A stretch of DNA of 64,000 nucleotides, taken from the IMG/VR virus record IMGVR_UViG_3300037067_008637, positions 1 through 64,000 of that record; one strand, given 5' to 3'. The position numbers and the translations under genes were made by a program. This DNA is from a virus. Its lineage: Duplodnaviria > Caudoviricetes. This document shows, piece by piece, positions 33,589 through 60,157 of this stretch; positions within the stretch are counted from its first letter, which is position 1; the number at the start of each line of letters is the position of its first letter. The notes below the pieces were generated by a model. The model did no database searches. It was not told where the DNA came from and worked only from the letters and a program-made list of their open reading frames with translations.

Positions 33589-33820
33589 TCATGATGCCCT
33601 CCAACAATTTCAATTCAAAATGATTAAGTCCTTGAAGATCATCAATACTGTATTCCGGAAATTTCATTTCTAATTGGACCAAATGATGTCTAGTCCATTC
33701 ATTCATATCGTTTTCATATTGGTTTCTGATCAGTGCATCATCCCTCTCATTCACTTTCTTTCGTATGAAAAATATTGATCCAATGATCAGAACCAAAGCA
33801 ATAACAACAACCAGACTCAT
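33563..33820 (-). CDS. Small membrane-anchored protein
   Basis: N-terminal TM helix; ATGA overlap with the queC stop. Confidence 0.5.
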   Translation of the reverse strand: MSLVVVIALVLIIGSIFFIRKKVNERDDALIRNQYENDMNEWTRHHLVQLEMKFPEYSIDDLQGLNHFELKLLEGIMNENTEEKI

Positions 33821-36813
33821 TTCCCAATCCTTTTTCTCAAGATTTCTTTATTCTTCTCTGGAATTTCAAGTCGGTTTATGATATTGAGAATGTCTAGAGT
33901 TTTAACATCCAAAGAAGGAGGTTCATACGCTACATAATTACTATCATCTACAACATAATATGTCCTTCCATCTTCCAATCCAGCCATTTTACAGGACCAA
34001 TAACTCAGCAAACCACTACCGCATGCAGGCTTTCCATCTTTGGAGCAATTAGCAGGAACAGATACACAACCACATACTTTACCATCGAGATTCTTTAATT
34101 CCTGCTGAATCATCATAGGTCGATCACATGATACTAAGAATTTTTCAAGAGGCTTTAGAAATCCAAGCTGATTGAGAAGATGATATTGTTCTGTCTTTAG
34201 AATGTTACATAAACCATATAGGGGTTTGATGTGTAATCCAGCAATACTAAACTTAAAGAACTTTATTGCTGCATCTACAAACCGTTCGCAATTGTCCGGA
34301 TATGAATTGTGGGTTAACAATTTATTAACAAAGAAATTATTATTTGGTTCACAATAATAATTTATCATTTCCTGTTCACCATTAATAATCTCAATTCTCT
34401 CCAAATTCCATCCGTTTTGAAGGGAATATAAAAAATTAGTCACTCTAGATACAATCAGATTGGGATCATCTGTCTCAAGAATTGCCAAGTGATCCCACCC
34501 CATTTTTTTATATAATTGATGTCTGTTTTCAATTTCTTCTAAGGTGTGAAAATATCCAATTCCTCCATAGTATTCAACAATCTTTTTTTGTTCAATATTT
34601 ATAAAATCCGGATTCATATGTTTCCCGCTACTAGTTATCCAGATTTGTCCATCTCCTACAAATCTAAGAGGAAGAGAATGAGATTCAAATAGTAAAATCA
34701 ATTCTTTCTCTTTTTTATTGGGGCTTTCACATCCACAAATTGATGGATTTATTTTTCCTTCCGCAATCATTTTTAATGTGGCTTGTCTACATTTTTCTCT
34801 TCCTTCTGGAGTTTGATTCCAATGAATACCTCCGTTAGCAATCAGTCTTTCCTTATAAACCTGTTTCATTTTTTCGGAAAGAATTTGTTTTACATTTTCT
34901 CCTTCTTCTGAACTCCAAAAAATAGATAAACCATTTAGAATTCGTCTTCTATATTCTTCGTCCTTCCAACATTTTTTAGATGAGATTTTTCTGTTTTCAG
35001 TATCTCCAGTTTGATGAGTTTTTCCACACCAACACGGAATTGTATTACTACGAATATGTCCAAACATTGGATTTTTATCACCAAGAAACGCTTTCCTTAT
35101 TTTTTCTTTAATTTCAGGAAGCATTTTCTTTCCAGTTCTCCACGAGGACAGTTTTTGTCTGGTTTCGGCAGACACAGAATGTCCCATTCTACATTTAGAT
35201 CTTTTTTCAAAATCATATCCAGGAAACGCATTTCCTCTTTTAATGTTATCTTTCAGTTTACACTCTTTAATAGAATAGCACACATCACCAACAAATAATG
35301 CGTTCGCCTCCACCCAATTCTTTCCTTTTATAAAAAATGGATGAGTACCTGAAACAAAAAGGATTTTTTCACTTTGTATGCATCCAGAATTATATGTGAA
35401 AGTCAATTTGTAAGTGTCTTGGTGATGATTATTAAACTTCTCCTTTATAATGCTTTTTTCCAATAATCCCTTGTCGATATTGAAAGACATTATTTCATCC
35501 CCAACATTTAAATCGTTCGGAAGGACTTCTTTTCCATCATATCTTAAAATCCTGTTGTTAATATGATTTACAATACATCCAGATTCTGTTAATTGAAGAA
35601 ACCCCCCGGTAAGGTAAACGTCGTCGTATTGATTTGTCATTATTAGAGATTCTGCTAAAGCACCCATATGTACAAGCATTAAATGATTACGGAAAGTAGT
35701 CCACGCGGCAGTCGTCTTCAATCCTTCTTCCGTTCCGGTTATGATCTTTGCCTTAGGATCTGTCAGCATTCCAAAATCCAGTTTGGACATTGCGTCGCTA
35801 ATATCAAATTCTCTTAACTCTATTCCAAGAGCCTTAGTAACGTGCCCAATAGCCGCTCTTTCACAATCCTGTCCTCTGTGTCCATATTTAAAGTGAACAG
35901 CAATCGGATTCATTTCTGCTGCCTTCAATGTTGCTAGTGTTGTAGAACTATCCAATCCTCCGGAAGCTGCAACAAGGACACATTCTCTCTTCGGTTTTGT
36001 TTTATCTTTCTTGTACACATCATACGTCGACGTAATGTATCTTGGTTCAAAGCTACTACCAGACACCATTCCACTATCCAAGTCAATACTAGTAATAGAA
36101 TATTCCGGTACTCTATGAGCATAATAATCTTCCCAGAGAGCCATTGTATTCTTTTCTATCTTTTGTCCTTTAAGTAAAGATATGGTTTCCCAAATGGATT
36201 CTTCTGTAGATGCTGCAAAGAATCCCCAACCTCTCAAATACCCGCAGTACAAAGGTGAATGGGTACAAACTAAGTACATGCAATTCTTCTGAGTATCTAC
36301 TAAAACAAATGCGAAGCCACCAGAAAGATAGTTCATAGTATCATTCATGTTTCGTCCGAACATAAGATAAGCGTGGATAATTGCTTCGCTATCAATGTCC
36401 GTTTGATATTCATATTCAAAACCAGATTCTTTTAATTCTTTCTGAATAATGGATGATACTGCACCATTGTGTACTAAATACAACCCATGCTCCCTGTTAC
36501 ATATTGGTTGGACATTTCTCTCTACGTTACTTACACCGCATTCGGTTTCGGGAGCGGCTCTTGCATTGGATAGAATAACATCTCCTTTTTGAAAAACATC
36601 CATAGGATAAGACGGATGCGGCAAATTATGCAATATTGTGGTACATTCAGTTACATCACTTGTTTTGTAGCACACTCCGGGCTGGTGCTGCCCTCTAATA
36701 AGGACAGCACCAAACCCATCGGTACCACGTTTCAATGATTGAAGCCATGCTGATTTGATCACATGTTTAGAAATCGATGCTTCTCTCATGTAAAATGCGG
36801 TAATTCCACACAT
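33817..36813 (-). CDS. queC: Class II glutamine amidotransferase-QueC fusion (Gat-QueC), intein-containing
   Basis: MCGI N-terminus, RGTDG, VHNG, DIDSE (Ntn GATase); SGGLDS PP-loop, YGHRGQ, FRNHLM and YPDN (QueC). Confidence 0.88.
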   Translation of the reverse strand: MCGITAFYMREASISKHVIKSAWLQSLKRGTDGFGAVLIRGQHQPGVCYKTSDVTECTTILHNLPHPSYPMDVFQKGDVILSNARAAPETECGVSNVERNVQPICNREHGLYLVHNGAVSSIIQKELKESGFEYEYQTDIDSEAIIHAYLMFGRNMNDTMNYLSGGFAFVLVDTQKNCMYLVCTHSPLYCGYLRGWGFFAASTEESIWETISLLKGQKIEKNTMALWEDYYAHRVPEYSITSIDLDSGMVSGSSFEPRYITSTYDVYKKDKTKPKRECVLVAASGGLDSSTTLATLKAAEMNPIAVHFKYGHRGQDCERAAIGHVTKALGIELREFDISDAMSKLDFGMLTDPKAKIITGTEEGLKTTAAWTTFRNHLMLVHMGALAESLIMTNQYDDVYLTGGFLQLTESGCIVNHINNRILRYDGKEVLPNDLNVGDEIMSFNIDKGLLEKSIIKEKFNNHHQDTYKLTFTYNSGCIQSEKILFVSGTHPFFIKGKNWVEANALFVGDVCYSIKECKLKDNIKRGNAFPGYDFEKRSKCRMGHSVSAETRQKLSSWRTGKKMLPEIKEKIRKAFLGDKNPMFGHIRSNTIPCWCGKTHQTGDTENRKISSKKCWKDEEYRRRILNGLSIFWSSEEGENVKQILSEKMKQVYKERLIANGGIHWNQTPEGREKCRQATLKMIAEGKINPSICGCESPNKKEKELILLFESHSLPLRFVGDGQIWITSSGKHMNPDFINIEQKKIVEYYGGIGYFHTLEEIENRHQLYKKMGWDHLAILETDDPNLIVSRVTNFLYSLQNGWNLERIEIINGEQEMINYYCEPNNNFFVNKLLTHNSYPDNCERFVDAAIKFFKFSIAGLHIKPLYGLCNILKTEQYHLLNQLGFLKPLEKFLVSCDRPMMIQQELKNLDGKVCGCVSVPANCSKDGKPACGSGLLSYWSCKMAGLEDGRTYYVVDDSNYVAYEPPSLDVKTLDILNIINRLEIPEKNKEILRKRIGK
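34306..35577 (-). mobile_element. Intein (424 aa) with NUMOD3-like repeats and a Vsr/DUF559-like endonuclease
   Basis: Splice junctions ESG|CIVNH...NNFFVNKLLTHN|SYPD; block B SGTHPF; HSVSAETRQKLS/NPMFG repeats; PDFINIEQKKIVEYYG..YFH. Confidence 0.88.
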
Positions 36814-37769
36814 TAATCATCCTCCAGTCTTTCGCCATCCTCAAATTGTCCTAAAGAAATTCCACAATCATCAGATTCAAGTTCACATCCTAATTCTCTT
36901 GCACCAATATTGAAATCAAACTGATCATCATCTTCCTCTTGTACAAACTCTTCTTCTTCCTCATATTCATCATCCGCATCTAATACTCTTCCTGTTTGTC
37001 GCTTACCGTTAAGGTGTTTGAAGATAGATTGTCTTTTAGGAGAACGCTCACGCTCACGCGTATATCCGCCGGATAACTCCATATGAGGATCAATTGAACC
37101 ATTACACTGTCCCATCATAGCATATCGACTAATTAAATCCATTTCCTCTTGAGAATCAACCCATCCGAACTGATTTGAAAATGCATATCTTTCTCCCCAA
37201 GATCCTCGAATGGGCTGCATTGTTCTTTCCGTAATTTTGTTTGATCCTACAATGTCAGTAGTTGAAAGCAATCCTTCATCCGCTGGTGTAAGCTTCAATC
37301 TAGCAAAGAAACCATAATTTCCAACAGGTAAAGTAGCAATTGCCTTTACAATACTTCTATCTGTCCACAACAATGAAAATCTAAAATTAGCATTGATGTA
37401 TCTCTCATCTGTTCCCGAGAAATTAGCGCATCCCGCAGGATGTCTATGCAATACTGTATTAAACTGTAAACCGGGATCTTCTTTGTAATCAATATGTGCT
37501 GTAGAAACTTCTTGCTGCGGAATATAATATTCTTCCTCAATTACAAAAGCTTCTGCATCTGCGTTCCAATTTGTCTTACAAAATATTGAAAACTCCGAAG
37601 TTTTGAATACATCATTTAGTCCATTCATGACTTTTCGGATGAATGATGGAACAACGATTTTTAGTTCGTGCTTAATTACCAACGAGTTGGTAATGATTGT
37701 GTCCTTTCCATCTTTGGTTACTGTTGCCTTACCGCCTTTGATTTCTTCTCCAGTATCTAGATCTTGCAT
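36813..37769 (-). CDS. JAB/MPN+ metallo-isopeptidase (prokaryotic JAB)
   Basis: SEF...IPQQEVS...LHRHP..CANFSGTD matches the E-HxH-S-xx-D JAB motif; long acidic tail. Confidence 0.85.
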   Translation of the reverse strand: MQDLDTGEEIKGGKATVTKDGKDTIITNSLVIKHELKIVVPSFIRKVMNGLNDVFKTSEFSIFCKTNWNADAEAFVIEEEYYIPQQEVSTAHIDYKEDPGLQFNTVLHRHPAGCANFSGTDERYINANFRFSLLWTDRSIVKAIATLPVGNYGFFARLKLTPADEGLLSTTDIVGSNKITERTMQPIRGSWGERYAFSNQFGWVDSQEEMDLISRYAMMGQCNGSIDPHMELSGGYTRERERSPKRQSIFKHLNGKRQTGRVLDADDEYEEEEEFVQEEDDDQFDFNIGARELGCELESDDCGISLGQFEDGERLEDD

Positions 37770-38713
37770 CAGTCTAACTCCACATTTTCGTTGGTATTTG
37801 CCACTGGTAAATGTTTTTCAACTATGTTCAAAAAGTCTTGTTTTAGTATATCATCTGTGATTGTCTTTGCGCATTTATCTCCATCGTTTGTCATACGATC
37901 CAAAATGACACCTTTAAAGATGTATTCAAGAATATCCTCAACATTAAAGGTAAGAGGATTATCAAGTATCCAACGATATTTACTTGGTTCAGATTGATAT
38001 CTTTTTATATTGATTGCTCCAACTAATACAAGAAGAGCAGCCATTGATGCGGGAATGATATGAGACGGAGTAATTGTGTATCCCCCTCTCCCCATTACAG
38101 GATGATCCATTGGATTGAAATCAATCGTGATGCTTGAGCCATTGTATGCAGCACGAATTATATAGATTTCTTTTTTGAATATTTTGTCAAGAAGATCATA
38201 ATCATTGTAAAAATTATCTCGACAATCAATTACCAAAACATCCTCGTTTGGGAGAAATGGATGGTGAACAGTGTGATACGTTTCACTTCCAATACCAAAT
38301 CTCTCAGCAAACCTTGCATCAAAATACTGATTTAAAGGAACAACTGTGAGTAAAGGATTTGACGTACAAAGCATACTTGTTAATGCAGATACTTTCAAAT
38401 TTCCCACAGTTGAAATATCAAATGGCGTTCTATTGAGATTGGATATTTCAATCACATCTGGATCAACCAATATCAAATACTTCACTGCCTGTATACCAGC
38501 TATAAATGTTGCAACCCATGCACCAATTCCTCCGCATCCTAATATCATTACCTGCTCACACATTCTATTGGTACAACTAGATAGAACTGTTTGCACGTCA
38601 TTGGCATCATCCGCATGATTTCTAGAAAACATTTCGTCAGATATAGTACCTGCATTTTCATACGTATATGAATCCAATGACAATGTAATAAGACTGTTAT
38701 TGTTCGCGTCCAT
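37769..38713 (-). CDS. E1/ThiF-family adenylating enzyme
   Basis: ILGCGGIG, VDPDVIEISNLNR, GNLKV, VIDCRDN. Confidence 0.9.
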   Translation of the reverse strand: MDANNNSLITLSLDSYTYENAGTISDEMFSRNHADDANDVQTVLSSCTNRMCEQVMILGCGGIGAWVATFIAGIQAVKYLILVDPDVIEISNLNRTPFDISTVGNLKVSALTSMLCTSNPLLTVVPLNQYFDARFAERFGIGSETYHTVHHPFLPNEDVLVIDCRDNFYNDYDLLDKIFKKEIYIIRAAYNGSSITIDFNPMDHPVMGRGGYTITPSHIIPASMAALLVLVGAINIKRYQSEPSKYRWILDNPLTFNVEDILEYIFKGVILDRMTNDGDKCAKTITDDILKQDFLNIVEKHLPVANTNENVELD

Positions 38714-38747
38714 GTTTCAACCCTTCTTTGTGATCTACTGGAATTTT

Positions 38748-40199
38748 CTAATCTAATTCTACCCAATCTCTTCCAGTTTCTTTTGTAATGTTTCGTTTAG
38801 TATGATCCGCTTCAAATTTTCGAAGAGCATTCTTATATTGTGGACCTAATTGTTTAGGAGTAAAATCATTATTCAATCCCTTGTAGGAAGAATCAAAATT
38901 GATAATTTCTAATACTTCTTCAATCTGTCTAAAGAAATATTCGATTACCTCAACAGAAATGTTTTGAGAATCCGATGTTGTGATTGTGTTCCATCTGGAG
39001 GTAAGATCATATCCTAAACATACACGGTGATCACTTCTAGACACATTTGGATGATCTCCTTCACAATGAACTATGATTTCTCTTCCTGAAAATAACTTTG
39101 GATCTATAATCAATTTATCAACATGATATTTTCTGAATGCATCTTCCAATATATAAAGAACACCATTTTGATAGCATTTTTCTGGAATGATTTTTACCTT
39201 TTTTACCCACACTTTTCCATAGTTTTTTTCATCCTTCAAAGAGAAACCACATTTTGCAATTCTGGAAAATACAGACATTCCTAATTGCATTCCTTGATTA
39301 AATGCATCTTTTTTCAAGCTATCAGAAGCATTTATAATTTGAATAAGAGCCTTCTTATAAAGGGTTCCTTGGTTCATAAGAAGGGAATAATGTATGCCAC
39401 TAATATCTATTCCGCCTCGATTAAAATCTGCAACATCTCCCGCACACAACGATCTGAGTTGCTTATTTATCTCATTGATGATTGTTTTATTATCTAATAA
39501 TGTCATTCTTCCTTCTGCCGCATTTCGCTCGATTTTTAGAAGGATGGATGTAATTAGATCTTTTCCCAATTCTGCTGGATTTTGTCCTTCATATACATCT
39601 TTTTGGAGAGATTGAAAATCAAAGATTTTCTTAATAATAGAACAGGTTTTCATTGCTCCAATCTGGTACCACAACGTAGCAATGGCCATTTCGTGAAAAT
39701 ATAAAATCCCATTAATCCCAATAAATGCAATCGGAACTTTAATATCATCCCCAGCAGTAAATACCGCAAACAACCATTTATTCAGGGCATTAGTAACTCT
39801 AAAAGACATCTGGGATGCCATGTTTTTGTACAACAAGAATCTACTATTACTGGGAGCATCTACATACATTTCAACCGCTGTATACATATCATAACAATGC
39901 AGATAGTTTAGAGTTGAAAGTGTCGGAAGTTGCACAGACACGATGCTCCGAAATATAGATGGTTGTCCTTGCACGTTTTGTGCATAATCATATAATGCTG
40001 TATCTATATTGCTGTATGTTGTAACAACAAATCTGCTTGAATTTATTGGCAAACAGTTTGCAATAGCTTCAATTCTCAATGAAACAGCGTCATAATCATC
40101 ATCCGAAAATTTTTGTAAATTTATAGTCCCTTCATTTTTCGAAGCATTCTTTTTTTGTTGATAAACAGATTGATCGATTTTAACGGACGTGATGCTCAT
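38748..40199 (-). CDS. E2/UBC-like conjugating enzyme with a long N-terminal extension
   Basis: C-terminal HPNVSRSDHRVCLG...IEEVLEIINFDSSY matches UBC HPN(I/V)xxxxx(I/V)CL...LL..PN.DS; AGGAG RBS before ATG at 40199. Confidence 0.75.
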   Translation of the reverse strand: MSITSVKIDQSVYQQKKNASKNEGTINLQKFSDDDYDAVSLRIEAIANCLPINSSRFVVTTYSNIDTALYDYAQNVQGQPSIFRSIVSVQLPTLSTLNYLHCYDMYTAVEMYVDAPSNSRFLLYKNMASQMSFRVTNALNKWLFAVFTAGDDIKVPIAFIGINGILYFHEMAIATLWYQIGAMKTCSIIKKIFDFQSLQKDVYEGQNPAELGKDLITSILLKIERNAAEGRMTLLDNKTIINEINKQLRSLCAGDVADFNRGGIDISGIHYSLLMNQGTLYKKALIQIINASDSLKKDAFNQGMQLGMSVFSRIAKCGFSLKDEKNYGKVWVKKVKIIPEKCYQNGVLYILEDAFRKYHVDKLIIDPKLFSGREIIVHCEGDHPNVSRSDHRVCLGYDLTSRWNTITTSDSQNISVEVIEYFFRQIEEVLEIINFDSSYKGLNNDFTPKQLGPQYKNALRKFEADHTKRNITKETGRDWVELD

Positions 40200-40221
40200 T
40201 TTCATCTCCTGTTTTAATGGC

Positions 40222-40257
40222 AAGGGAGAGGACCCTGCTATTAGGATCCTCTCCCTT
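40222..40257 (-). promoter_or_regulatory. Strong intercistronic stem-loop between the Ubl and E2 genes
   Basis: AAGGGAGAGGATCCT-AATAGC-AGGGTCCTCTCCCTT, with no U-tract. Confidence 0.6.
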
Positions 40258-40268
40258 AGTGACTTTGT

Positions 40269-40838
40269 TTATTGGCCGGCTTTGTTGTGTCTCTCAACCG
40301 CAACGAAGATCAGCACGGGATTGCAGTTAACGTTTTCAGGATCTACAATTCGACCTACCGACAAATCGCGAAGTACGCAATTTTCAATCTGCGTAAGAGC
40401 ACAATAGCTCTGAATCGCTCCCAAAATGTTTTCCGGAGATTTGATGAGAATGTGCTTCTCTCCATTGATTACCAAAATGCGTTGAGTGCGAGTGATGTTG
40501 TGAACACTTGCATTCGGAAACACAACTCGGAAACCCTTGGACGTTTCGGCAATATCATACCCACGACAATCAACCGGAATTTCAACAGAATTCGGATCAA
40601 ATTCGGACACCGAATACTTCTCATGATTGGCAAGCACGTTTTCATCAAGAAGAGCATACCGCGTATACCGATCATCATTATTCTCTTCAATGGCACCAAC
40701 TTCCACCAACGCTTCCAAAATTTCACCAAGCTTCTTCGTCTTCTTGGCATAACTCAACACCTGAGCAATCGCATTGCCCGTCAGCATTTCATCATTGTTA
40801 ACAATTACATCGAGTACTTCTTGCTTCGTCAAAGACAT
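40269..40838 (-). CDS. Winged-helix domain fused to a putative ubiquitin-like (beta-grasp) domain ending KAG-Q
   Basis: N-terminal wHTH pattern (LTGNAIAQVL..KKLGEILEALVEVGAIEE..RYAL); C-terminal beta-beta-alpha-beta-beta pattern ending VAVERHNKAGQ; first gene before E2-E1-JAB; GGAGG RBS. Confidence 0.65.
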   Translation of the reverse strand: MSLTKQEVLDVIVNNDEMLTGNAIAQVLSYAKKTKKLGEILEALVEVGAIEENNDDRYTRYALLDENVLANHEKYSVSEFDPNSVEIPVDCRGYDIAETSKGFRVVFPNASVHNITRTQRILVINGEKHILIKSPENILGAIQSYCALTQIENCVLRDLSVGRIVDPENVNCNPVLIFVAVERHNKAGQ

Positions 40839-40911
40839 TAGAATTTCCTCCGAGTCATTAATTTTTTATTGTCAAAGAACAACAGCCCACCCACAAGGAT
40901 GGGTTGCTTAT

Positions 40912-42124
40912 ACAAGAGAAGCAGGAAAACCTCCTCCTTTAGGGGGAGGATGAACTGCTCTGAACTAGAAAATTGAGAACAAGTGAATAGGATAAAACTA
41001 TATATAAGTTTATTCTTTTAACGATTGGAGAGATTATATGAAATTAATGAAGAGTTATACTGCTAGAATTGAAGGCAATGCCTGTAAATCTAGCAATCTG
41101 CTCTTCATTCTTTCCAAATTAAAAGAAATGTCCCAATACGTTTTCGAAGGCGGACCAGATTATTGGTTCGACTTCATGGCCATGTATCATGATTGTCGTA
41201 AACGTTATCCAGAATTAAACTCGAAAATACTGCAGAATTTTCTGCAACTTTATCGTCCTATTAAAGGACGAAAATTGCCCAAATCTGCAATTAAACCGAT
41301 TATTGTTCTAGATCAAAATTTCAATTTGAAATTCAATGAATGCTCTAAATATTCGAACTGGTGGTTACGATTCGGACGCCGAAATTATCCCTTGAGAGGA
41401 AAGAGAATCCTCTCTCGTATCAAGGACATATCAGGCGTTACAGAATGCCGTATCTTTGTTCGAAACAATAAAGCATATTGCAAATTGACATATGCTGAAG
41501 AGGCTCCAGAAATAACATCAACTGATAATCCAGTTGGAATCGATCTCAACACCAAGCGAATTGTTTCCTCTTCAAATAAAGTATACCATATAAAACGATG
41601 GTTTCATCGTAAGATGGAGAATAAGAAGAATCGTGGAAAGAACAATATTGATCAATTCACGAAACATACCATTCACCAGATCACGAATCAGATTATCGCG
41701 GATCTCGTCCGAACAGAATCAAAGGTTTTGATCCTGGAGGACCTTAAGGATCTTCGAAAGTCTTCATCGAGAAAGAATGGAACTTCAAAAGGAAAAGAAC
41801 TCAATTATCGAATAAATAATTGTTTTCCAACCGCGATGTTCCGACAAATTCTTTCTTATAAATGTTTAGAAAACGGAATCAAATTGGAATTCGTAGATCC
41901 TGCATACACCTCGAAAGCTTGCTCGCGATGCGGCTCGCAAGAGACGCTTCGAGAGACTCAATCGAGGTTTGAATGCACGTCTTGTGGATTTCAATTGGAC
42001 GCCGATCTAAACGCTTCTAGAAACATTCTATTCCGGTATACCGGAGAGAATGGCTCGCCAGTCGATCCGAGCCGGTTTTCCCAAGGGAAAGCCAAGCTGG
42101 TCCCTTTAGGGGCCAGTAGTTGAC
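40912..42124 (+). mobile_element. Non-autonomous IS200/IS605-family (IS1341-type) element
   Basis: Left hairpin CCTCCTCC-TTTA-GGGGGAGG (40930-40949), right hairpin CTGGTCCC-TTTA-GGGGCCAG then TAGTTGAC; tnpB only; boundaries approximate. Confidence 0.75.
41038..42123 (+). CDS. tnpB: TnpB RNA-guided nuclease
   Basis: RuvC GIDLN / ILEDL / DADLNASRNI and Zn ribbon CSRCG..CTSCG; the only long plus-strand gene in the region. Confidence 0.9.
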   Translation: MKLMKSYTARIEGNACKSSNLLFILSKLKEMSQYVFEGGPDYWFDFMAMYHDCRKRYPELNSKILQNFLQLYRPIKGRKLPKSAIKPIIVLDQNFNLKFNECSKYSNWWLRFGRRNYPLRGKRILSRIKDISGVTECRIFVRNNKAYCKLTYAEEAPEITSTDNPVGIDLNTKRIVSSSNKVYHIKRWFHRKMENKKNRGKNNIDQFTKHTIHQITNQIIADLVRTESKVLILEDLKDLRKSSSRKNGTSKGKELNYRINNCFPTAMFRQILSYKCLENGIKLEFVDPAYTSKACSRCGSQETLRETQSRFECTSCGFQLDADLNASRNILFRYTGENGSPVDPSRFSQGKAKLVPLGASS

Positions 42125-42136
42125 AGAATAGAGGGA

Positions 42137-43147
42137 TTAGTGTCTGGATGCAAATATCGTTGTCATCTGTTTTTGGATATAAGAGCGCATGTTCATATGG
42201 CAGCGCACATCATAATTCAAGTCCAAGCAATACGAGGCGATCAATATTGCTACCAAGAAATTACGATGTTCAGGAGGAAGATTTTCCCAATAGGAATTGA
42301 AAATACCCTTCTCCGTTTTCTTTAGGCATTTCGCCAACTTATCTGCATGAATATCAACATTGTGAGTAATACCCTTTAGAATGGTAGTACTTTCATTGTA
42401 GTGCTGTTGAATCTGAGTAAGATCCGCGGATACTGCACCAAGACTATGTGTAGTATGCGTGAACGTATGATTGCGATTCGTCAATGTGAAATAATCACGG
42501 AATCCAATACGATCGTTCCCGCTGTTTTGAAGTTTGATGTGAACAGCGAAATCAATACGAATCGACGCAGTTCCGTTGTATGTATTGGTAACACAAACAT
42601 CTACATTAGAATTTGCATTACTTAATACATCAGAGCTTACACCACTGATAATTTCAAAGGCGAGCTTAGCTTCATCATCTCCTAATACATCAATCGGTGT
42701 AGTCGTTTTACCTGTTGCAGAAAGAATAAAAGGTGCACCATGTACAATCGGTTCACCATCAAATTCCACCTGACGAGCCAATTCATCATAGAAAGGATTG
42801 ACTTTAGCAACCACATATTCCTTCGAAAGCAATCCGCCTTTCAAAACTTGCCAAACAGGTTCTGGCTGCATTTCATCTTTATAGAATCCTGCAAATGCAC
42901 CAGTCTGTTGCGCATCAGGCGTATAGATTTCTTCGAACCGATAGGTATGCCGTCCAAATTCTGTAAACTCCACAGGAATATGAAGGCCGTTTTCCCCTAT
43001 CTCATTCGCAAGAGGTTCCACCCAAGAAATCGTAGGAGCAGGAAGGGTGTTTTCTTGAAGCGTTTCAGGAACTTCTTCGAGCGTTAGGATTGTAGCCGTG
43101 TTTCCATCATTTACCAAAGCATCAAGGTTATCATTAGGTTCTGTCAT
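42137..43147 (-). CDS. Hypothetical protein, possibly DUF932-like
   Basis: VCVTNTYNGTASIRIDF...FTH resembles the DUF932 core. Confidence 0.45.
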   Translation of the reverse strand: MTEPNDNLDALVNDGNTATILTLEEVPETLQENTLPAPTISWVEPLANEIGENGLHIPVEFTEFGRHTYRFEEIYTPDAQQTGAFAGFYKDEMQPEPVWQVLKGGLLSKEYVVAKVNPFYDELARQVEFDGEPIVHGAPFILSATGKTTTPIDVLGDDEAKLAFEIISGVSSDVLSNANSNVDVCVTNTYNGTASIRIDFAVHIKLQNSGNDRIGFRDYFTLTNRNHTFTHTTHSLGAVSADLTQIQQHYNESTTILKGITHNVDIHADKLAKCLKKTEKGIFNSYWENLPPEHRNFLVAILIASYCLDLNYDVRCHMNMRSYIQKQMTTIFASRH

Positions 43148-43912: not shown

Positions 43913-46282
43913 CTACATACAAAGCGATTCATCTGCTTCCAGAAATTCTCGTAATGTGTGTGATATCAGCACAACACAATGAGTATCTGAAAGACGTTTA
44001 ACCATATCAATTGCTGCCGCAGTATTCTCTGGATCAAGACTATCCAGTATTTCATCAAGTAACAATACATTCATCTTACAATCTTGAATCGTTTCCAACA
44101 AGTGTCTTAAACACAGAAGAACAATTATATCAGTCATTCTTCTTTCGCCTGCTGAAAGATCCTTTAGTTCAGACAGATTTTGTGTTTGTAGAACATCGAT
44201 ACTGAACTTGTTTCTACTTTCACCTGACTTCAATTGTTTCTGAGAACTAAATCTGACTTTTAGATTTGGTACCAATTGGCACAAATCTCTCGCACGTTCA
44301 TTTAAGATAGGAACTGATTCGTCCAGAAGAATTGCTTTGATTCCCACATCTGAGAATCCTTTCTTCCAGAACTTTAATATAACATTTTTACGATTTTGCC
44401 TGGCCATTTCCTCCTGTAATTGTTGTAATTGCTCTTGTTGTTCTTTACACTCTCTTTGTATATCTTTCTCTCGTTGGTACAATTCCTTTATCTCTATCTT
44501 ATAACGAGAGTCTACTTCAGAGAGAGTTGCTTCAACTGAGGCAATCTCACGATCGGTTTGTGACATTTGTTCTACACAGTTATTGAACCGTTCAAGCTTC
44601 TCTTCATTCGACTGTATTTCAGGAACAACTTCTTTCAATCTGACTATCCACGTCATTGCAATACTCTGATTGTCTTCTTTAATCTTTTGAACTCTAATTG
44701 CCTTTTCAGATTGAATTTCTTCTTCTATTGCAGCATGCTCTTTACTTCGTTCCTTTTCTGCCGTTTCTATTTTTTGCCGTGCTTCTCCTTCCTCTGTTCT
44801 AGCTGCATTTAAAGATTCCACAAATTGATTTGCAGTATCTTTTCTCTTTTTGTCTATCTTCTGTTGTAATGCAGTTTTTTCTGTGTTGAACTTTTCTTCT
44901 AATTCCAAAAATTCATGGGTCAACTCTTTATATTGTTCAGAACACTCTTCTCTTTCTTTTTCAATTGTCACCAATTCTTTTTGCAGTTTATTAACTGTAT
45001 CCTGACAATGTATTGAAAGCTTCTGAATTTTGAGTAACGCTTTTTCATCTTTCAACTCTTGTCCACACGCCGCGCACTCAGGATTTTCTTTCTCCAACGC
45101 TTTGTTGTATTTTACAGATTCTTTTGTAGCAGTATCTTCTTCTCGTAAAGCAGTTTTCAATCTCTCATTCAAAACTCTTAAACGAGATGATACTTGATCA
45201 ATCTGTTCTTTCACTGGTTGAAGAGCCGCGGCTGATTCTTCTGTTTTCTTTTCTACAGCAATAGAAGCTTGCCGTTCAAGTTCTCCAAGAACTTCTGCTT
45301 TTCTTTTCTCGGCTTCTAATTTCTTGGACTGTGCTTCATGAAGAGACTTCTGAAGATTAAGCAATATTTCTTGATACTTATTTTCGACTTCTCTTCCTTT
45401 AGCTGTTCTTTCCAGGATCATTACACCGTCGAGATCTGAAATCTGATTTCTATATGTTTCCCGTTGTGCTTCTATCTTTGCTTCCAATCCAGCTTTTTCA
45501 TTTAGCAATTCTCTCAATTGTTTATCTGTTGTTACAGCATCTTTATTATCAATTGATTTCAACTTATTTAGTTTAGCCTGTAGTGATTCCAAACGCTCCT
45601 GCAGAGACATAACAGTGTCATCATAACGCTGTTGTGCTTTACACTTCTGTTCTTCAACATAGGTAATCTGAGAACGTTTTTCACTTACTACAGAATCAAT
45701 CACATTACATTTATTTGCTAAGATTGAAATAGATGAATCCACAAGTTTTGATGCATTTATAATACTTTCTGCATACTTGTCATACTCAGATAAGGATAGA
45801 ACAGCATCGATGATTTCTTTTTGCCCACTGTGAGTAAGATCCATAAAGTGATTCTGAACATATTGAGAAAATAGAAGACAATTCATAAATACATCTTTTG
45901 GCATAACCAAATTCTCAATAAGTTTCAACGTCTCTGCTTCTGTATTACATGAAATATCTATTTCATTCTTATATAGAAATCTGCGATTCTTAAATTTGTG
46001 GTGCTTCCTATGAGCAACTACTTTATAGTTGTTTTCTCCGTCACTCCAGGTAACAGAAACAACTGCATTTTTTCCGGATCTTCTCCTAACAATATCATCT
46101 CCACTTTGGCCATCCATGGTTTTATCATAGATCGCCCATGCCAAGGCAGAGAAAATAGTTGTTTTTCCTTTTCCGTTCCCGCCTGTTATTGATACAAAAC
46201 GATTAGGCGTGAATGAAAATTCAAGTTCTTCATGACACCGAAAGTTTTGTAATGTGAGATCTTGAAATGTTAGTTCTCTCAT
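43913..46282 (-). CDS. Rad50/SbcC (gp46-like) recombination ATPase
   Basis: GGNGKGKTT, coiled coils with a CAAC hook, LSAGE signature, LLLDE, ISH. Confidence 0.93.
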   Translation of the reverse strand: MRELTFQDLTLQNFRCHEELEFSFTPNRFVSITGGNGKGKTTIFSALAWAIYDKTMDGQSGDDIVRRRSGKNAVVSVTWSDGENNYKVVAHRKHHKFKNRRFLYKNEIDISCNTEAETLKLIENLVMPKDVFMNCLLFSQYVQNHFMDLTHSGQKEIIDAVLSLSEYDKYAESIINASKLVDSSISILANKCNVIDSVVSEKRSQITYVEEQKCKAQQRYDDTVMSLQERLESLQAKLNKLKSIDNKDAVTTDKQLRELLNEKAGLEAKIEAQRETYRNQISDLDGVMILERTAKGREVENKYQEILLNLQKSLHEAQSKKLEAEKRKAEVLGELERQASIAVEKKTEESAAALQPVKEQIDQVSSRLRVLNERLKTALREEDTATKESVKYNKALEKENPECAACGQELKDEKALLKIQKLSIHCQDTVNKLQKELVTIEKEREECSEQYKELTHEFLELEEKFNTEKTALQQKIDKKRKDTANQFVESLNAARTEEGEARQKIETAEKERSKEHAAIEEEIQSEKAIRVQKIKEDNQSIAMTWIVRLKEVVPEIQSNEEKLERFNNCVEQMSQTDREIASVEATLSEVDSRYKIEIKELYQREKDIQRECKEQQEQLQQLQEEMARQNRKNVILKFWKKGFSDVGIKAILLDESVPILNERARDLCQLVPNLKVRFSSQKQLKSGESRNKFSIDVLQTQNLSELKDLSAGERRMTDIIVLLCLRHLLETIQDCKMNVLLLDEILDSLDPENTAAAIDMVKRLSDTHCVVLISHTLREFLEADESLCM

Positions 46283-46295
46283 TCCCTCTCCGTTA

Positions 46296-46814
46296 TTATC
46301 TCAATTTTATAAGTTCGTGCTCCAAGCATCTTACCAAAGATTGCTGTGTGTGAACAATCCATCTGGATGTATCAATCTTTTCCTCTTTAGAATAATATGC
46401 TTCCCATGGATGCATATCATTCGCTAAAGCAAAAAACTTACTGAATTTGGATGAATCTGTGCAATTGTCCAAATCAAACATGAATTTTCTATCAATGCAA
46501 TAAATTACAGGTTTCTTCAGGCCCATAGCATAGGACATTTCACACATTGTTCCAATGAAATGGGGATGAAATGCAAGTAGAATATCACATTCTTCTACTT
46601 CCTTAAAATCTCCTTCAAGAGTCTCTTTGAATTTCTGAGGTTTTAAGTCTGGATATCGTCTATCCAAAGTAGCATTTGGCGCAAATGTGGGAGGATCCAT
46701 CCAACTTCCTGTGAACTCAACTTGAGATGTCCCCATAACTCTCTGTAAAAGATCCAATTGTGCTCTCACTAGAAACTGATTTTCATATCCGGATGCCGCG
46801 TAGATCTTAATCAT
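46296..46814 (-). CDS. Nucleoside 2-deoxyribosyltransferase/nucleotide N-glycosidase-like protein
   Basis: KIYAAS...DFKEVEECDILLA...GTMCEMSYAMGLKKPVI; likely start 46814. Confidence 0.7.
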   Translation of the reverse strand: MIKIYAASGYENQFLVRAQLDLLQRVMGTSQVEFTGSWMDPPTFAPNATLDRRYPDLKPQKFKETLEGDFKEVEECDILLAFHPHFIGTMCEMSYAMGLKKPVIYCIDRKFMFDLDNCTDSSKFSKFFALANDMHPWEAYYSKEEKIDTSRWIVHTQQSLVRCLEHELIKLR

Positions 46815-47874
46815 AGTTCTCTCCTTCATGAGATATTGCTTCCATTCCAATTTCAAGATACTCGCTTCTTTCGTCTTCGGGAATGTTTTCGATTTCGAGA
46901 AGCTTTCTCATTTGTTCTTCGATTGTCATTCCAGTTGTAATACCGCGCAACTCTTCTTCGGCTTCATAGATATCTACCAACTGGGCATGACTCTCTACCA
47001 TGGAAGCAACTTCTTTAGGAACATTCGCTATTTTCTTCTTAACAATAATGTGATGTCCATCTTCTTTTGCTTTATTGAGAGCGTAAGCAAATTCCTCTAA
47101 ATCAGTTTCTTCATCAAGAACGAGTTCTACATAACGCCGCCATCCGGTAGTCAAAATTGATTCTTCTGTCATCCTCTCAGAATCAATCACTATAAATCGT
47201 TTCTCTTCTCCAGATTCATCTCTGCGTATAGCAATTGGAGAACCTACATAATACAAAGTGGTTTCATCATTTGATATCATTTGTGGTTTATGATAATGCC
47301 CAAGAAACACTTTCTTGAATGGCCTTAGATCATTGATTGTGATTCCAGTACGAATTGAAATACCACTAGATAAACATCCTTCATTCAATCCGAAATGAGA
47401 AACTAATACAGTTACAGGATCTAAACCCTTTTCATATTCACTTGATATCACATCATTGATGTTCTTGGAATGAGGAACAAAAAGAATGTGCCCGATTCTA
47501 GTAGGCTTCATAATAATAGTTACATTGTTACAAGGTTCAAGAAGTTGAATTGCACTTTCTTCTTCTTCAACTCTACCAGTAGTTGCATCATGATTTCCAT
47601 GAACAATATAGAAATAAAGCCGATCCATATATTTCTCTATTATTTGACGGAATAGAAGAAAAGCACGAACAGCCACAACTCCCTTTGTATCATTTAGATC
47701 TCCACCAATGACAATTGTGTCAATACCATTAGTCACGGCATATTCACACATTTGATCAAAAGTATGGAGAATCTCCATCAACTTAACTGGAAGCCCTGTA
47801 TCTGTATACTCCTTATCTGTCCATAATTTCAAATGCAAATCCGCTGTAAATATGAATTTGTGATCTAATGGCAT
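46807..47874 (-). CDS. Mre11/SbcD (gp47-like) nuclease
   Basis: ADLH, GGDLND, GNHD, SHFG, LGHYHKPQ, YVGSP. Confidence 0.93.
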   Translation of the reverse strand: MPLDHKFIFTADLHLKLWTDKEYTDTGLPVKLMEILHTFDQMCEYAVTNGIDTIVIGGDLNDTKGVVAVRAFLLFRQIIEKYMDRLYFYIVHGNHDATTGRVEEEESAIQLLEPCNNVTIIMKPTRIGHILFVPHSKNINDVISSEYEKGLDPVTVLVSHFGLNEGCLSSGISIRTGITINDLRPFKKVFLGHYHKPQMISNDETTLYYVGSPIAIRRDESGEEKRFIVIDSERMTEESILTTGWRRYVELVLDEETDLEEFAYALNKAKEDGHHIIVKKKIANVPKEVASMVESHAQLVDIYEAEEELRGITTGMTIEEQMRKLLEIENIPEDERSEYLEIGMEAISHEGENYD

Positions 47875-58843: not shown

Positions 58844-60157
58844 GTGAACTACTGGTCCCTAAAGGAACCAGCTTCCTGCGTTGCCGCAATACTATCCGAA
58901 AAATCGGAATGATTCTCCAAATAGGCCTGTCCCAGGCAAAGTATGTTTTTGGCCGCATTGACATCTCTATCTTCAACATAACCGCAACTGCAACTCATAG
59001 TTCGATCAGAAAGCGGCATAGTGTGCAACTTTCCGCAATTGTTACACATTTTGCTGGTATTATATGGATTGACTTCTATGATTCGGTTGCTCTTGTATTT
59101 TAAGAACGATATCAATTGACCCAAACACGAATTTCTCAATTCTCTATTTAATCCGGTTATTTCACTTTCTGACATTTTCTTCAATTGAAGATTTTCAATA
59201 ACAATTGTATCAAATTTTTGAGAAAGGTTATAAGAAACCTTATGCAAAAAATCCGATTGTTTTCGGCTCTTTGCATCATACAATTTATTGATCGTCTTAG
59301 AAAGAAAACGCCATTTTCTTGAGTATTTTTTACATTTCTTGTCTCTCCTTGATTTCAGTTGATTGATTTGTTTATCAAAATATTTTGCATGATTTTTGTT
59401 CTTAATGATTTCACCATCAGATGTTGCAACAATATTAGTGATACCGAGATCAATGCCAATAATTGAATTACTTGTTTCTACGGATTTCTTTTCACCCTCG
59501 GACGTGATACAAATATACCATTTATCGTCTTTCGTTGTGATGTATAATTGTTTGATAGTTCCTTGTATTTCTCTGTGCTTAGAAATCTTAATTGATCCAT
59601 ATTTCGGAACTTTTACGTGATTATCCAAAATCTTGAAATGAAGTGATTGTGGATAGCAAATTCCAAAGAATTCTCTGCAGGATCTGAATCTTGGATAACC
59701 TTCTGGTTTTCCATCTTTACGAAGATCCAATTCCTCTTTGGAATTCCTAAGGAGATCATGAAATTTGTCGAAAGCTTTTTGCAATCTTAATGGAACTTGT
59801 TGCAACACCTGACTATGAATCTCCAAAAGAGATGGATCATCTTGTTTTAATGAAACCAATTCCTGTTGCTGATCATATCTAGTAATTTCATAATCACCTG
59901 TTAGATTTCTTTGTTCTAAGAAATAATTGTACAATCGATTAAGACGATTGGCGTGAGTCCAAAGCTTCCTTATCTGATCCTGTGTAGGATAAGCTCTGAA
60001 CTTATAAGTAATCATTCGTCTTTCGAAATCCTTTTTGTTTTCAATATATTCCTTTAGAATCATTATATTGTAAGTTTGTTCTGCTTATTTCAAATGGGTT
60101 TATATATGAAAATTATTCGTCACCTACTGCCTAAAGGCAGAGGATTTCTTCTTGAGG
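58844..60157 (-). mobile_element. Non-autonomous IS200/IS605-family element
   Basis: Left hairpin CCTCTGCC-TTTA-GGCAGTAGG (60123-60143), right hairpin CTGGTTCC-TTTA-GGGACCAG then TAGTTCAC; tnpB only; boundaries approximate. Confidence 0.75.
58849..60063 (-). CDS. tnpB: TnpB RNA-guided nuclease
   Basis: YKFRAYPT HTH, GIDLGI, IVIENL, TSKMCNNCG..CSCG..DRDVNAAKNI. Confidence 0.93.
   Translation of the reverse strand: MILKEYIENKKDFERRMITYKFRAYPTQDQIRKLWTHANRLNRLYNYFLEQRNLTGDYEITRYDQQQELVSLKQDDPSLLEIHSQVLQQVPLRLQKAFDKFHDLLRNSKEELDLRKDGKPEGYPRFRSCREFFGICYPQSLHFKILDNHVKVPKYGSIKISKHREIQGTIKQLYITTKDDKWYICITSEGEKKSVETSNSIIGIDLGITNIVATSDGEIIKNKNHAKYFDKQINQLKSRRDKKCKKYSRKWRFLSKTINKLYDAKSRKQSDFLHKVSYNLSQKFDTIVIENLQLKKMSESEITGLNRELRNSCLGQLISFLKYKSNRIIEVNPYNTSKMCNNCGKLHTMPLSDRTMSCSCGYVEDRDVNAAKNILCLGQAYLENHSDFSDSIAATQEAGSFRDQ

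What the first reader, a model, noticed from the sequence alone, without database searches (positions are those of the whole stretch)
36813..40838. Phage-encoded ubiquitin-like conjugation operon: Ubl - E2 - E1 - JAB
Seen: four consecutive minus-strand genes. (1) A 189-aa protein ending ...VAVERHNKAG-Q. (2) A ~483-aa protein with a C-terminal UBC signature HPNV-x6-VCLG...LEIINFDS. (3) A ThiF/E1 enzyme with GxGGxG and SNLNR. (4) A JAB peptidase with HxH-x7-S-xx-D; the E1 and JAB genes overlap (TGATG). Known: E1+E2+JAB+Ubl is the minimal set for Ubl maturation, activation, transfer and removal, as in bacterial Bil/Bub systems and CBASS Cap2/Cap3. An E2 argues against a simple ThiS/MoaD sulfur relay. 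Inference: the phage runs its own protein-tagging pathway, in which JAB trims the terminal Gln to expose Gly and the Ubl is ligated to host or phage targets (counter-defence, host takeover or assembly control). No E3 is evident; the long E2 N-terminal region may select substrates.
Basis: partly seen in the sequence, partly recalled or inferred. Interest (0 to 1): 0.92.

Follow-up and report, generated by a model that had tools for sequence, protein, structure and literature searches.

The report
Phage-encoded ubiquitin-like protein-tagging operon
A large uncultured phage, and a family of related phages, carries its own four-gene ubiquitin-like protein-tagging kit (a DNA-binding-type tag, an E2, an E1 with no catalytic cysteine, and a JAB peptidase); until now such kits were known as bacterial anti-phage defences, not as conserved phage genes.

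Summary

The 189-aa protein has a winged helix followed by a predicted beta-beta-alpha-beta-beta domain. In 33 relatives it ends in invariant NKA[G/A]: 23 stop exactly there and 10 carry 1-18 extra residues. The beta-grasp fold itself was not confirmed.

The order Ubl-E2-E1-JAB recurs in about 10 divergent phage contigs, next to SbcCD, always with a strong hairpin between Ubl and E2. A complete 45.5-kb phage carries E1-E2-JAB.

The E1 has no conserved catalytic cysteine. It has an invariant Tyr two columns from the ThiF C184/MoeB C187 position, as in Bub E1s, yet it is paired with a canonical Cys E2.

No member was found among deposited phage genomes or in the GTDB genomes scanned by motif. 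The cassette is not a Bil, Bub or CBASS member. The target and biological role are unknown. This scan noted the cassette before only on this same genome.

The parts
40269..40838 (-). Modifier precursor: N-terminal winged helix (about residues 1-63), linker, beta-rich stretch, predicted beta-beta-alpha-beta-beta domain (120-183), and the tail HNKAG-Q
40222..40256 (-). 16-bp RNA hairpin in the Ubl-E2 intergenic spacer, a candidate attenuator or leaky terminator
   Evidence: Free energy -28.8 kcal/mol, z -5.3. The same spacer holds an equally strong hairpin of unrelated sequence in 7 of 7 related loci (z -3.8 to -5.4), several followed by U-runs.
38748..40223 (-). E2-like conjugating enzyme: about 300-aa N-terminal region of unknown fold plus a C-terminal UBC domain (about 305-460) with H391-P-N393 ... 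C402 and N442-F-D444-S445
37769..38713 (-). E1-like adenylating enzyme: a single ThiF-type domain with no Zn CxxC pairs, no conserved crossover-loop Cys, and an invariant Tyr212
   Evidence: Pfam ThiF 1.8e-18. The PDB profile hits MccB, PaaA, UBA5, Uba1 and MoeB. Invariant R31, GxGGxG, D86, NLNR, K107 and DCRD. The only conserved Cys is C164 of DCRD, and Y212 lies 2 columns from ThiF C184/MoeB C187.
36813..37769 (-). JAB/JAMM metallopeptidase (about 40-135) with a long acidic C-terminal tail; its start overlaps the E1 stop (TGATG)
   Evidence: Invariant E59, H108, H110, S118 and D121 in 9 homologues. Prok-JAB is hit below threshold in 5 of 9 members (best 6e-4). PADLOC JAB 5e-3. Overlap.
33817..36813 (-). 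Gat-QueC (glutamine amidotransferase + QueC) interrupted by an intein of about 430 aa; translationally coupled to JAB (TAATG). The linkage is clade-specific, so it may not belong to the module.
   Evidence: Pfam GATase_6/7, QueC, HINT and NUMOD3. It lies downstream of JAB in the window, L001, L004 and L009 (all NKAG-clade loci that reach that far) but in none of the NKAA-clade loci within reach.
42137..43147 (-). 336-aa DUF932-like protein, the conserved neighbour directly upstream of the Ubl gene in the NKAG clade; here a TnpB insertion separates the two
   Evidence: Homologues lie directly upstream of Ubl in L004, L005, L007 and L009. ESM Atlas feature score 0.94 to DUF932 clusters, a lead only.

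Best explanation
This is a phage-encoded ubiquitin-like protein-conjugation cascade, conserved as a unit in a family of uncultured, mostly large phages.

The proposed steps, with what is shown and what is inferred:
1. The winged-helix-Ubl protein is made in excess, because a hairpin after its gene attenuates read-through into the enzyme genes (inferred from the conserved hairpin).
2. Where a C-terminal extension exists (Gln189 here), the JAMM peptidase removes it and exposes Gly188 (inferred from family comparison).
3. The ThiF-type E1 adenylates that carboxylate with ATP-Mg. All adenylation residues are present (shown in sequence).
4. The E1 has no catalytic Cys. The acyl group must therefore pass either directly from the adenylate, or through an oxyester on the invariant crossover-loop Tyr212 as in Bub E1s, to Cys402 of the E2 (inferred).
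5. The E2 has a canonical UBC core: the HPN Asn for the oxyanion and an N-x-D-S loop aligned with the PNxDSP loop of eukaryotic E2s. It transfers the tag to a lysine of a target chosen by its roughly 300-aa N-terminal region, since no E3 is present (inferred).
6. JAB also reverses the conjugation (inferred).

The tag carries a winged helix, and the module always sits beside SbcCD, so the targets are most likely DNA-associated proteins of the phage or the host. This last step is the weakest inference.
For: - Gene set and motifs.
- E1: the adenylation motifs are shared with E. coli ThiF and MoeB.
- JAB: the JAMM motif is invariant.
- Modifier: the C-terminal NKA[G/A] is invariant, with 0-18 residue extensions, and the predicted topology is beta-beta-alpha-beta-beta plus a tail.
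- Synteny: Ubl-E2-E1-JAB recurs in about 10 contigs whose E1s are only about 30-38% identical to the window's (26% in the rearranged L012).
- A hairpin conserved in structure but not in sequence follows the Ubl gene in 8 of 8 loci.
- Context is phage: msRNAP, TerL, SbcCD and topoisomerase II. IMG/VR contigs of 46-236 kb carry the module, one of them complete with terminal repeats.
Against: - No biochemical data exist.
- The beta-grasp fold of the tag's C-domain was not recovered by any search.
- The window's E2 and JAB do not reach Pfam thresholds on their own.
- The E1 lacks the Cys that nearly all E1s use.
- Most family members end in Ala-Ala, not Gly.
- The best E1 sequence hits in the PDB are MccB and PaaA, which do not serve conjugation.
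- No target or E3 is identifiable.
Confidence: 0.75

Rival explanations
1. The chemistry is the same but the logic is CBASS-like. The winged-helix protein is not a generic tag. It is the regulated effector itself, and E1/E2 attach its C-terminus to a partner to activate, tether or localise it (for example on DNA), with JAB switching it off. This parallels Cap2/Cap3 acting on the CD-NTase.
For: The 'tag' is large (about 190-220 aa) and carries a conserved N-terminal winged helix. Its tail ends in Ala in most members. Cap2 conjugates a full-size enzyme through its C-terminal Gly (10.1101/2022.03.31.486616).
Against: The hairpin after the gene suggests it is made in excess, like a consumable. E1 and E2 are separate proteins, and the E2 keeps the HPN motif that Cap2 lacks. 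No test run here separates the two readings.
Confidence: 0.3
2. The cassette is an accessory defence or inter-phage competition system carried by the phage (Bil-like superinfection exclusion) and tags proteins of competing phages. On this reading it does not serve the phage's own replication.
For: All characterised prokaryotic E1-E2-Ubl-JAB systems are anti-phage defences (PMC11601596, PMC10557695). Phages often carry defence cassettes. IS elements (TnpB) lie nearby.
Against: No PADLOC hit for the E2 or the tag, and only generic E1 and JAB hits. The module keeps a fixed core position beside SbcCD across deeply divergent phages, in both gene orders. It was not found in 185,579 GTDB species genomes by motif scan.
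Confidence: 0.15
3. There is no protein conjugation. The E1 only adenylates the C-terminus of the 189-aa protein for another chemistry: a ThiS/MoaD-type thiocarboxylate sulfur or amide relay feeding the adjacent Gat-QueC deazapurine pathway, or an MccB/PaaA-type C-terminal modification.
For: The best E1 PDB hits are MccB and PaaA, followed by UBA5, Uba1 and MoeB. The E1 lacks a catalytic Cys. Gat-QueC is translationally coupled to JAB in this clade.
Against: An E2 with invariant HPN..C is always present between the tag and the E1. No rhodanese, cysteine desulfurase or sulfurtransferase is nearby. Gat-QueC is not within reach of the module in the larger NKAA clade. A C-terminal Ala-Ala is not an MccB-type Asn.
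Confidence: 0.06

Closest known systems
Bil (BilABCD, bacterial ISG15-like) anti-phage systems
   Same: Separate Ubl, E2, JAB and E1 genes. No E3, so the E2 is presumed to pick the target. The Ubl can carry N-terminal extra domains (PMC10557695, PMC11601603).
   Different: The Bil E1 is a large protein with an inactive adenylation domain, an active adenylation domain and a catalytic-Cys domain. Here the E1 is a single 250-350-aa adenylation domain without a conserved Cys. There is no PADLOC sequence match for the E2 or the tag. Bil is encoded by bacteria as a defence, whereas this module lies in the phage core region.
Bub (6E/DUF6527) bacterial ubiquitination-like systems
   Same: The E1 lacks a catalytic Cys and has an invariant Tyr in the crossover loop (PMC11601596; here Y212). 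A JAB processes the Ubl pre-protein.
   Different: The Bub E2 uses Ser and lacks the C-terminal UBC helices. Here the E2 has an invariant Cys with HPN, and predicted alpha-helices follow the active site. No BubE/DUF6527 protease was seen. The genes are not fused.
Type II CBASS Cap2 (E2-E1 fusion) / Cap3 (JAB)
   Same: E1 adenylation, E2 Cys and a JAB that reverses the conjugation. The E1 gives weak hits to PADLOC E1-E2 models.
   Different: Cap2 is a fusion protein with an E1 Cys, and its E2 lacks HPN and helices alpha3/alpha4. The Cap2 substrate is a CD-NTase, and none is present here.
Canonical eukaryotic E2 (UBC, Pfam UQ_con)
   Same: HPN lies 7-9 residues before the catalytic Cys in the main family. 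An N-x-D-S loop aligns with PNxDSP. The fold aligns over about 115-120 of about 150 residues.
   Different: Identity is only 13-19%. Pfam is not reached by the window protein. A conserved N-terminal region of about 300 aa is added.
Lambda/T1 tail-assembly Ubl (TAPI) with JAB (TAPK)
   Same: A phage-encoded Ubl with a C-terminal Gly next to a JAB peptidase (PMC1779556).
   Different: That system has no E1 or E2 and lies in a tail-assembly context. It is processing only, not a conjugation cascade.

Membership tests
Ubl conjugation cascade (generic E1-E2-Ubl-DUB) | E1 adenylation domain with ATP/Mg-binding residues (Arg finger, GxGxxG, D, NLxR, K, DxxD) | tested here: met
   Pfam ThiF 1.8e-18. 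These residues are invariant in 12 aligned sequences that include E. coli ThiF and MoeB.
Ubl conjugation cascade (generic E1-E2-Ubl-DUB) | E1 catalytic Cys in or inserted into the crossover loop | tested here: not met
   The only conserved Cys in 11 E1s is C164 of DCRD. The column of ThiF C184/MoeB C187 holds I/T/A/E/V/H/F/N. An invariant Tyr lies two columns upstream.
Ubl conjugation cascade (generic E1-E2-Ubl-DUB) | E2 with UBC fold and catalytic Cys | tested here: met
Ubl conjugation cascade (generic E1-E2-Ubl-DUB) | Modifier with beta-grasp fold | tested here: inconclusive
   AF2 predicts beta-beta-alpha-beta-beta at 120-183 plus a 5-residue tail. The fold searches were filled by the winged helix. 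Atlas, PDB-profile, Pfam and hhalign-vs-ThiS searches gave nothing.
Ubl conjugation cascade (generic E1-E2-Ubl-DUB) | Modifier C-terminus ends in a small residue, exposed directly or after cleavage of an extension | tested here: met
   NKA[G/A] is invariant in 33 sequences. Of these, 23 end there, 5 have +1 residue and 5 have +6 to +18 residues.
Ubl conjugation cascade (generic E1-E2-Ubl-DUB) | JAB/JAMM motif E...HxH-x7-S-xx-D | tested here: met
   E59, H108, H110, S118 and D121 are invariant in 9 sequences. Prok-JAB is hit below threshold in 5 of 9.
Bil (BilABCD) | [quoted passage not shown] | tested here: not met
   The E1s are 250-354 aa with one ThiF domain and no conserved Cys. The architecture is as described in PMC11601596.
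Bil (BilABCD) | Sequence match to defence-system E2/Ubl models (PADLOC) | tested here: not met
   No family for the window's E2 or tag. None for 10 E2 homologues apart from one unrelated hit at 0.017.
Bub (6E/DUF6527) | E2 catalytic Ser in place of Cys | tested here: not met
   The invariant residue is a Cys, preceded by HPN.
Bub (6E/DUF6527) | Cys-less E1 with an invariant crossover-loop Tyr | tested here: met
   Y212 is invariant in 11 E1s and lies in the loop after the SITID strand. The Bub feature is taken from PMC11601596.
Bub (6E/DUF6527) | BubE (DUF6527) serine protease in the operon | tested here: inconclusive
   No DUF6527 appears among the precomputed Pfam hits of neighbouring genes in the fetched loci. 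Not every ORF was scanned.
Type II CBASS Cap2/Cap3 | E2-E1 fusion acting on an adjacent CD-NTase | tested here: not met
   E2 and E1 are separate genes in all loci. No CD-NTase appears in the neighbourhoods.
Pfam UQ_con (canonical E2) | Score above the Pfam gathering threshold | tested here: not met
   The window protein matches no family. Two of 65 homologues hit UQ_con, best E 1.9e-4. The family profile against PDB gives a best E of 0.038 to UBE2C.
Pfam UQ_con (canonical E2) | HPN motif about 8 residues before the catalytic Cys | tested here: met
   H391 is invariant and P392/N393 are at least 90% conserved. The Cys lies 7-9 residues after the Asn in the main family and 12 in L012.
ThiS/MoaD sulfur-carrier systems | E1 + Ubl without an E2, linked to sulfur-transfer or cofactor genes | tested here: not met
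   An E2 is always present. The neighbours are SbcCD, Gat-QueC and DUF932/DUF7168 genes, not thi/moa genes.

The most novel reading that the evidence does not exclude
This is a hybrid cascade not described before. A minimal Cys-less E1 passes the tag either through a Tyr212 oxyester (Bub-like) or directly from the acyl-adenylate to a canonical, eukaryote-like HPN-Cys E2. Large phages use it to attach a winged-helix (DNA-binding type) module covalently to DNA-associated proteins. That would be a phage-run, SUMO-like control of recombination, repair or chromosome handling, linked to SbcCD.
Probability: 0.25. Interest if true: 0.9.

Novelty: new variant of a known kind. Interest (0 to 1): 0.8.

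Why it matters
Prokaryotic Ubl conjugation (CBASS Cap2, Bil, Bub) has so far been described as a bacterial weapon against phages. A complete cascade conserved in the core region of a phage lineage would reverse that picture: viruses of bacteria would be using ubiquitin-like tagging themselves, as eukaryotic viruses do.

The enzymes are also informative for evolution and mechanism. The E2 keeps the eukaryotic HPN/Cys/N-x-D-S active site that the CBASS (Cap2) and Bub E2s lack. The E1 is the smallest possible adenylase with no catalytic Cys, so it offers a simple system to ask whether an E2 can be charged without an E1 thioester.

The winged-helix tag suggests a new use of Ubl conjugation, namely covalent delivery of a nucleic-acid-binding module.

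Tried and rejected
- **Deposited phage genomes:** megablast of the region and tblastn of two E2s gave no match.
- **IMG/VR with single proteins:** nothing. Only the family alignment found 4 loci.
- **Exact look-up of the JGI E2 call:** not on record.
- **PDB by sequence:** the single E2 gave only chance hits. The JAB profiles gave none.
- **Tag C-domain:** ESM Atlas, PDB profiles, Pfam at E<=10 and hhalign against E. coli ThiS gave no support for or against beta-grasp. The Foldseek and VIA searches of the whole tag model were filled by winged-helix proteins.
- **Intein-like reading of the conserved H-N near the C-terminus:** rejected. The weak Intein_splicing hits (8 of 33) map to the middle beta region (profile positions 40-86), not to the terminal HN.
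- **Other E2 searches:** BFVD search with the E2 model gave only weak rows. Foldseek against PDB with the whole E2 model was weak (best E 0.056, an E2).
- **GTDB genomes:** The second found no relative.
- **TGT/DpdA (PF01702) in four related virus records:** none. This is inconclusive because DpdA is divergent.
- **Sequencing runs:** no RNA holder is listed. The two DNA holders are landfill and groundwater metagenomes and may be the source samples.
- **Literature:** seven searches found no description of a phage-encoded full cascade. The library is incomplete, so this does not prove absence.
Full report
**What is there**

One search lists four consecutive minus-strand ORFs. They are followed without a gap by a fifth.

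| Coordinates | Length | Features |
|---|---|---|
| 40269-40838 | 189 aa | ends ...VERHNKAGQ |
| 38748-40223 | 491 aa from a TTG | HPNV-x6-VCLG and LEIINFDS |
| 37769-38713 | 314 aa | GCGGIG, SNLNR |
| 36813-37769 | 318 aa | HRH-x7-S-xx-D |
| 33817-36813 | 998 aa | Gat-QueC |

- For the 491-aa ORF, an AGGAG precedes the ATGs at 40205 and 40199, which would give 485 or 483 aa. JGI called 485 aa.
- The E1 stop and the JAB start overlap as TGATG. The JAB stop and the Gat-QueC start overlap as TAATG.
- The window is phage DNA. PHROGs assigns multisubunit RNA polymerase beta-type subunits, a large terminase, SbcC and SbcD, topoisomerase II, a helicase and a 2460-aa protein with lysin and tape-measure-like parts.
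- The terminase is at most 29% identical to any deposited phage. The cassette has no match among 50,697 deposited phage genomes.
- The protein collection records a contig of 92 kb. The DNA occurs in a landfill and a groundwater metagenome.

**E1**

- Pfam ThiF scores 1.8e-18.
- A nine-member family profile hits MccB, PaaA, UBA5, Uba1, MoeB, TcdA, NAE and ThiF in the PDB, at 1e-17 to 1e-12.
- Aligned with E. coli ThiF and MoeB taken from the annotated K-12 record, every adenylation residue is invariant: R31, G59xGGxG64, D86, N92-L-x-R95, K107 and D163-C-x-D166.
- The two Zn-binding CxxC pairs of ThiF/MoeB are deleted.
- In 11 phage E1s the only conserved Cys is the non-catalytic one of DCRD. 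The column that holds ThiF C184 and MoeB C187 holds I/T/A/E/V/H/F/N.
- Two columns upstream lies a Tyr (Y212) that is invariant in all 11.
- According to PMC11601596, Bub E1s likewise lack the Cys and use an invariant crossover-loop Tyr as an oxyester intermediate.

**E2**

- The window protein has no Pfam, PHROG, PADLOC or NCBIfam hit and no word-index homologue.
- An exhaustive phmmer over 1.84 billion representatives found 65 proteins, 38 of them at E<=1e-10.
- In their alignment H391, C402, G404, N442 and S445 are invariant, and P392, N393 and D444 are at least 90% conserved.
- The family profile, searched against all PDB sequences, returns 49 hits. All are ubiquitin-conjugating enzymes, with UBE2C best at E 0.038. 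The alignment runs through HPNV...C and the LL..PNxDSP loop.
- Two members touch Pfam UQ_con.
- The AlphaFold model has pLDDT 77 overall and above 90 for residues 300-460. It shows helix, four-strand meander, HPN-Cys loop, then helices.
- Cap2's E2 lacks HPN and helices alpha3/alpha4, and Bub E2s use Ser. This E2 is therefore closer to the canonical eukaryotic type than those two bacterial E2s (the Bil E2 was not compared).
- The first 300 or so residues are conserved within the family. Their fold was not identified.

**JAB**

- The window protein alone gives only sub-threshold Prok-JAB (1.2e-3) and PADLOC JAB (5e-3) hits.
- In nine homologues, E59, H108, H110, S118 and D121 are invariant. This is the full JAMM motif.
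- Five of the nine touch Prok-JAB.
- The C-terminal half is acidic and variable, with Zn-ribbons in some relatives.

**The modifier**

- After the winged helix come a disordered linker, three strands, then beta(120-124)-beta(128-132)-alpha(136-149)-beta(154-158)-loop-beta(176-183) and the tail H-N-K-A-G-Q. That order is the beta-grasp order, with a ubiquitin-like five-residue tail.
- No search confirmed the fold. The winged helix filled both structure searches, and sequence methods found nothing.
- The comparative evidence is strong. The nearest homologue (63% identical) ends exactly at ...HNKAG.
- Across 33 family members N-K-A-[G/A] is invariant. Of these, 23 end there, 5 have one extra residue (Q, F, K, K, A) and 5 have 6-18 extra residues. 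This pattern is expected for a reactive C-terminus with optional pro-peptides.
- Most members end in Ala-Ala.

**Conservation of the unit**

Neighbourhoods came from exact look-ups and from IMG/VR. Scoring them with family HMMs gives two clades.

- **NKAG clade** (window, L001, L004/5, L007, L009): SbcC ... DUF932-like gene - Ubl - E2 - E1 - JAB - (Gat-QueC).
- **NKAA clade** (L008/L015, L010, L011, L013/14): DUF7168 gene - Ubl - E2 (about 600 aa) - E1 - JAB - SbcD ... SbcC.
- L012 is a complete 45.5-kb phage with terminal repeats. It has E1-E2-JAB, plus a 97-aa ORF ending ...PKKG about 0.9 kb upstream.
- In the loci with the standard order, E1 identities to the window's are about 30-38% (26% in L012), and E2 identities are 17-27%. 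The unit has therefore been kept through long divergence and through a rearrangement relative to SbcCD.
- A motif scan of one genome for each of 185,579 bacterial and archaeal species found none.

**A conserved hairpin**

- The Ubl-E2 spacer of the window folds into a 16-bp hairpin (-28.8 kcal/mol, z -5.3).
- The same spacer in seven relatives holds an equally strong hairpin of unrelated sequence (z -3.8 to -5.4), several followed by U-runs.
- Structure kept without sequence, at one position, points to a terminator or attenuator. It would make the tag more abundant than the enzymes, as expected for a consumable.

**Mechanism, and what it is not**

- The most likely reading is a working Ubl conjugation cascade, as set out in the best explanation.
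- What is shown: the gene set, the catalytic residues, the folds of E1, E2 and the winged helix, the terminal motif, the synteny and the hairpin.
- What is inferred: trimming by JAB, adenylation, the route from E1 to E2 Cys402 (directly from the adenylate or through Tyr212), lysine targets chosen by the E2 N-terminal region, reversal by JAB, and a DNA-linked role suggested by the winged helix and the SbcCD linkage.
- It is not Bil, because the E1 architecture differs and there is no PADLOC match.
- It is not Bub, because the E2 has Cys, not Ser.
- It is not CBASS, because there is no fusion protein and no CD-NTase, and HPN is present.
- It is not a sulfur relay, because an E2 is always present.
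- Gat-QueC is adjacent only in the window's clade, so its coupling may be lineage synteny.

**Novelty**

- The held literature describes Bil, Bub and Cap2/Cap3 as bacterial defences, and the lambda TAPI/TAPK Ubl+JAB pair in tail assembly.
- Seven searches found no phage-encoded full cascade. The library is incomplete.
- I class this as a new variant of a known kind. It is phage-borne, has a winged-helix tag, and pairs a Cys-less, Tyr-bearing minimal E1 with a canonical HPN-Cys E2.
- Earlier notes of this scan concern only this same genome.

Noticed in passing
window 33817-36813 (-): Gat-QueC is 998 aa here but 563-568 aa in relatives (L001, L009). The extra 430 aa or so give HINT, Intein_splicing and NUMOD3 hits, so the QueC part is interrupted by an intein with a homing-endonuclease-type insert.
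   Followed up: partly
window 41038-42123 (+); also 58849-60063 (-): A TnpB (Cas12f1-like TNB, 6.9e-24) lies on the opposite strand between the DUF932-like gene and the Ubl gene, which are adjacent in relatives (L004, L005, L009). Two hairpins at 40886-40950 may be the IS end. A second, distant TnpB-like ORF lies at 58849-60063.
   Followed up: partly
L004 4869-7445 (+): In a related phage contig, an 858-aa protein with precomputed Pfam hits to major vault protein domains (MVP_shoulder, Vault_3 weak) sits between JAB and Gat-QueC. A vault-like protein in a phage is unusual.
   Followed up: no
L012 (IMG/VR record of 45,544 bp with direct terminal repeats): This complete, small phage has the module in another order (E1-E2-JAB). 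Its E2 has 12 residues between the HPN Asn and the Cys. A 97-aa Lys-rich ORF (2226-2519) ends ...PKKG and may be its tag. An array of small paralogous ORFs ending in -IE/-ID surrounds the module.
   Followed up: partly
window 42137-43147 (-): This 336-aa protein has no Pfam, PHROG or NCBIfam hit but has DUF932-like features in the ESM Atlas (0.94). It is conserved immediately upstream of the tag gene in the NKAG clade. The NKAA clade has a DUF7168/DUF2786 protein in that place.
   Followed up: partly
window 43913-47874 (-) and all related loci: The module is always within a few kb of SbcC/SbcD. It lies downstream of SbcC in one clade and directly upstream of SbcD in the other.
   Followed up: partly
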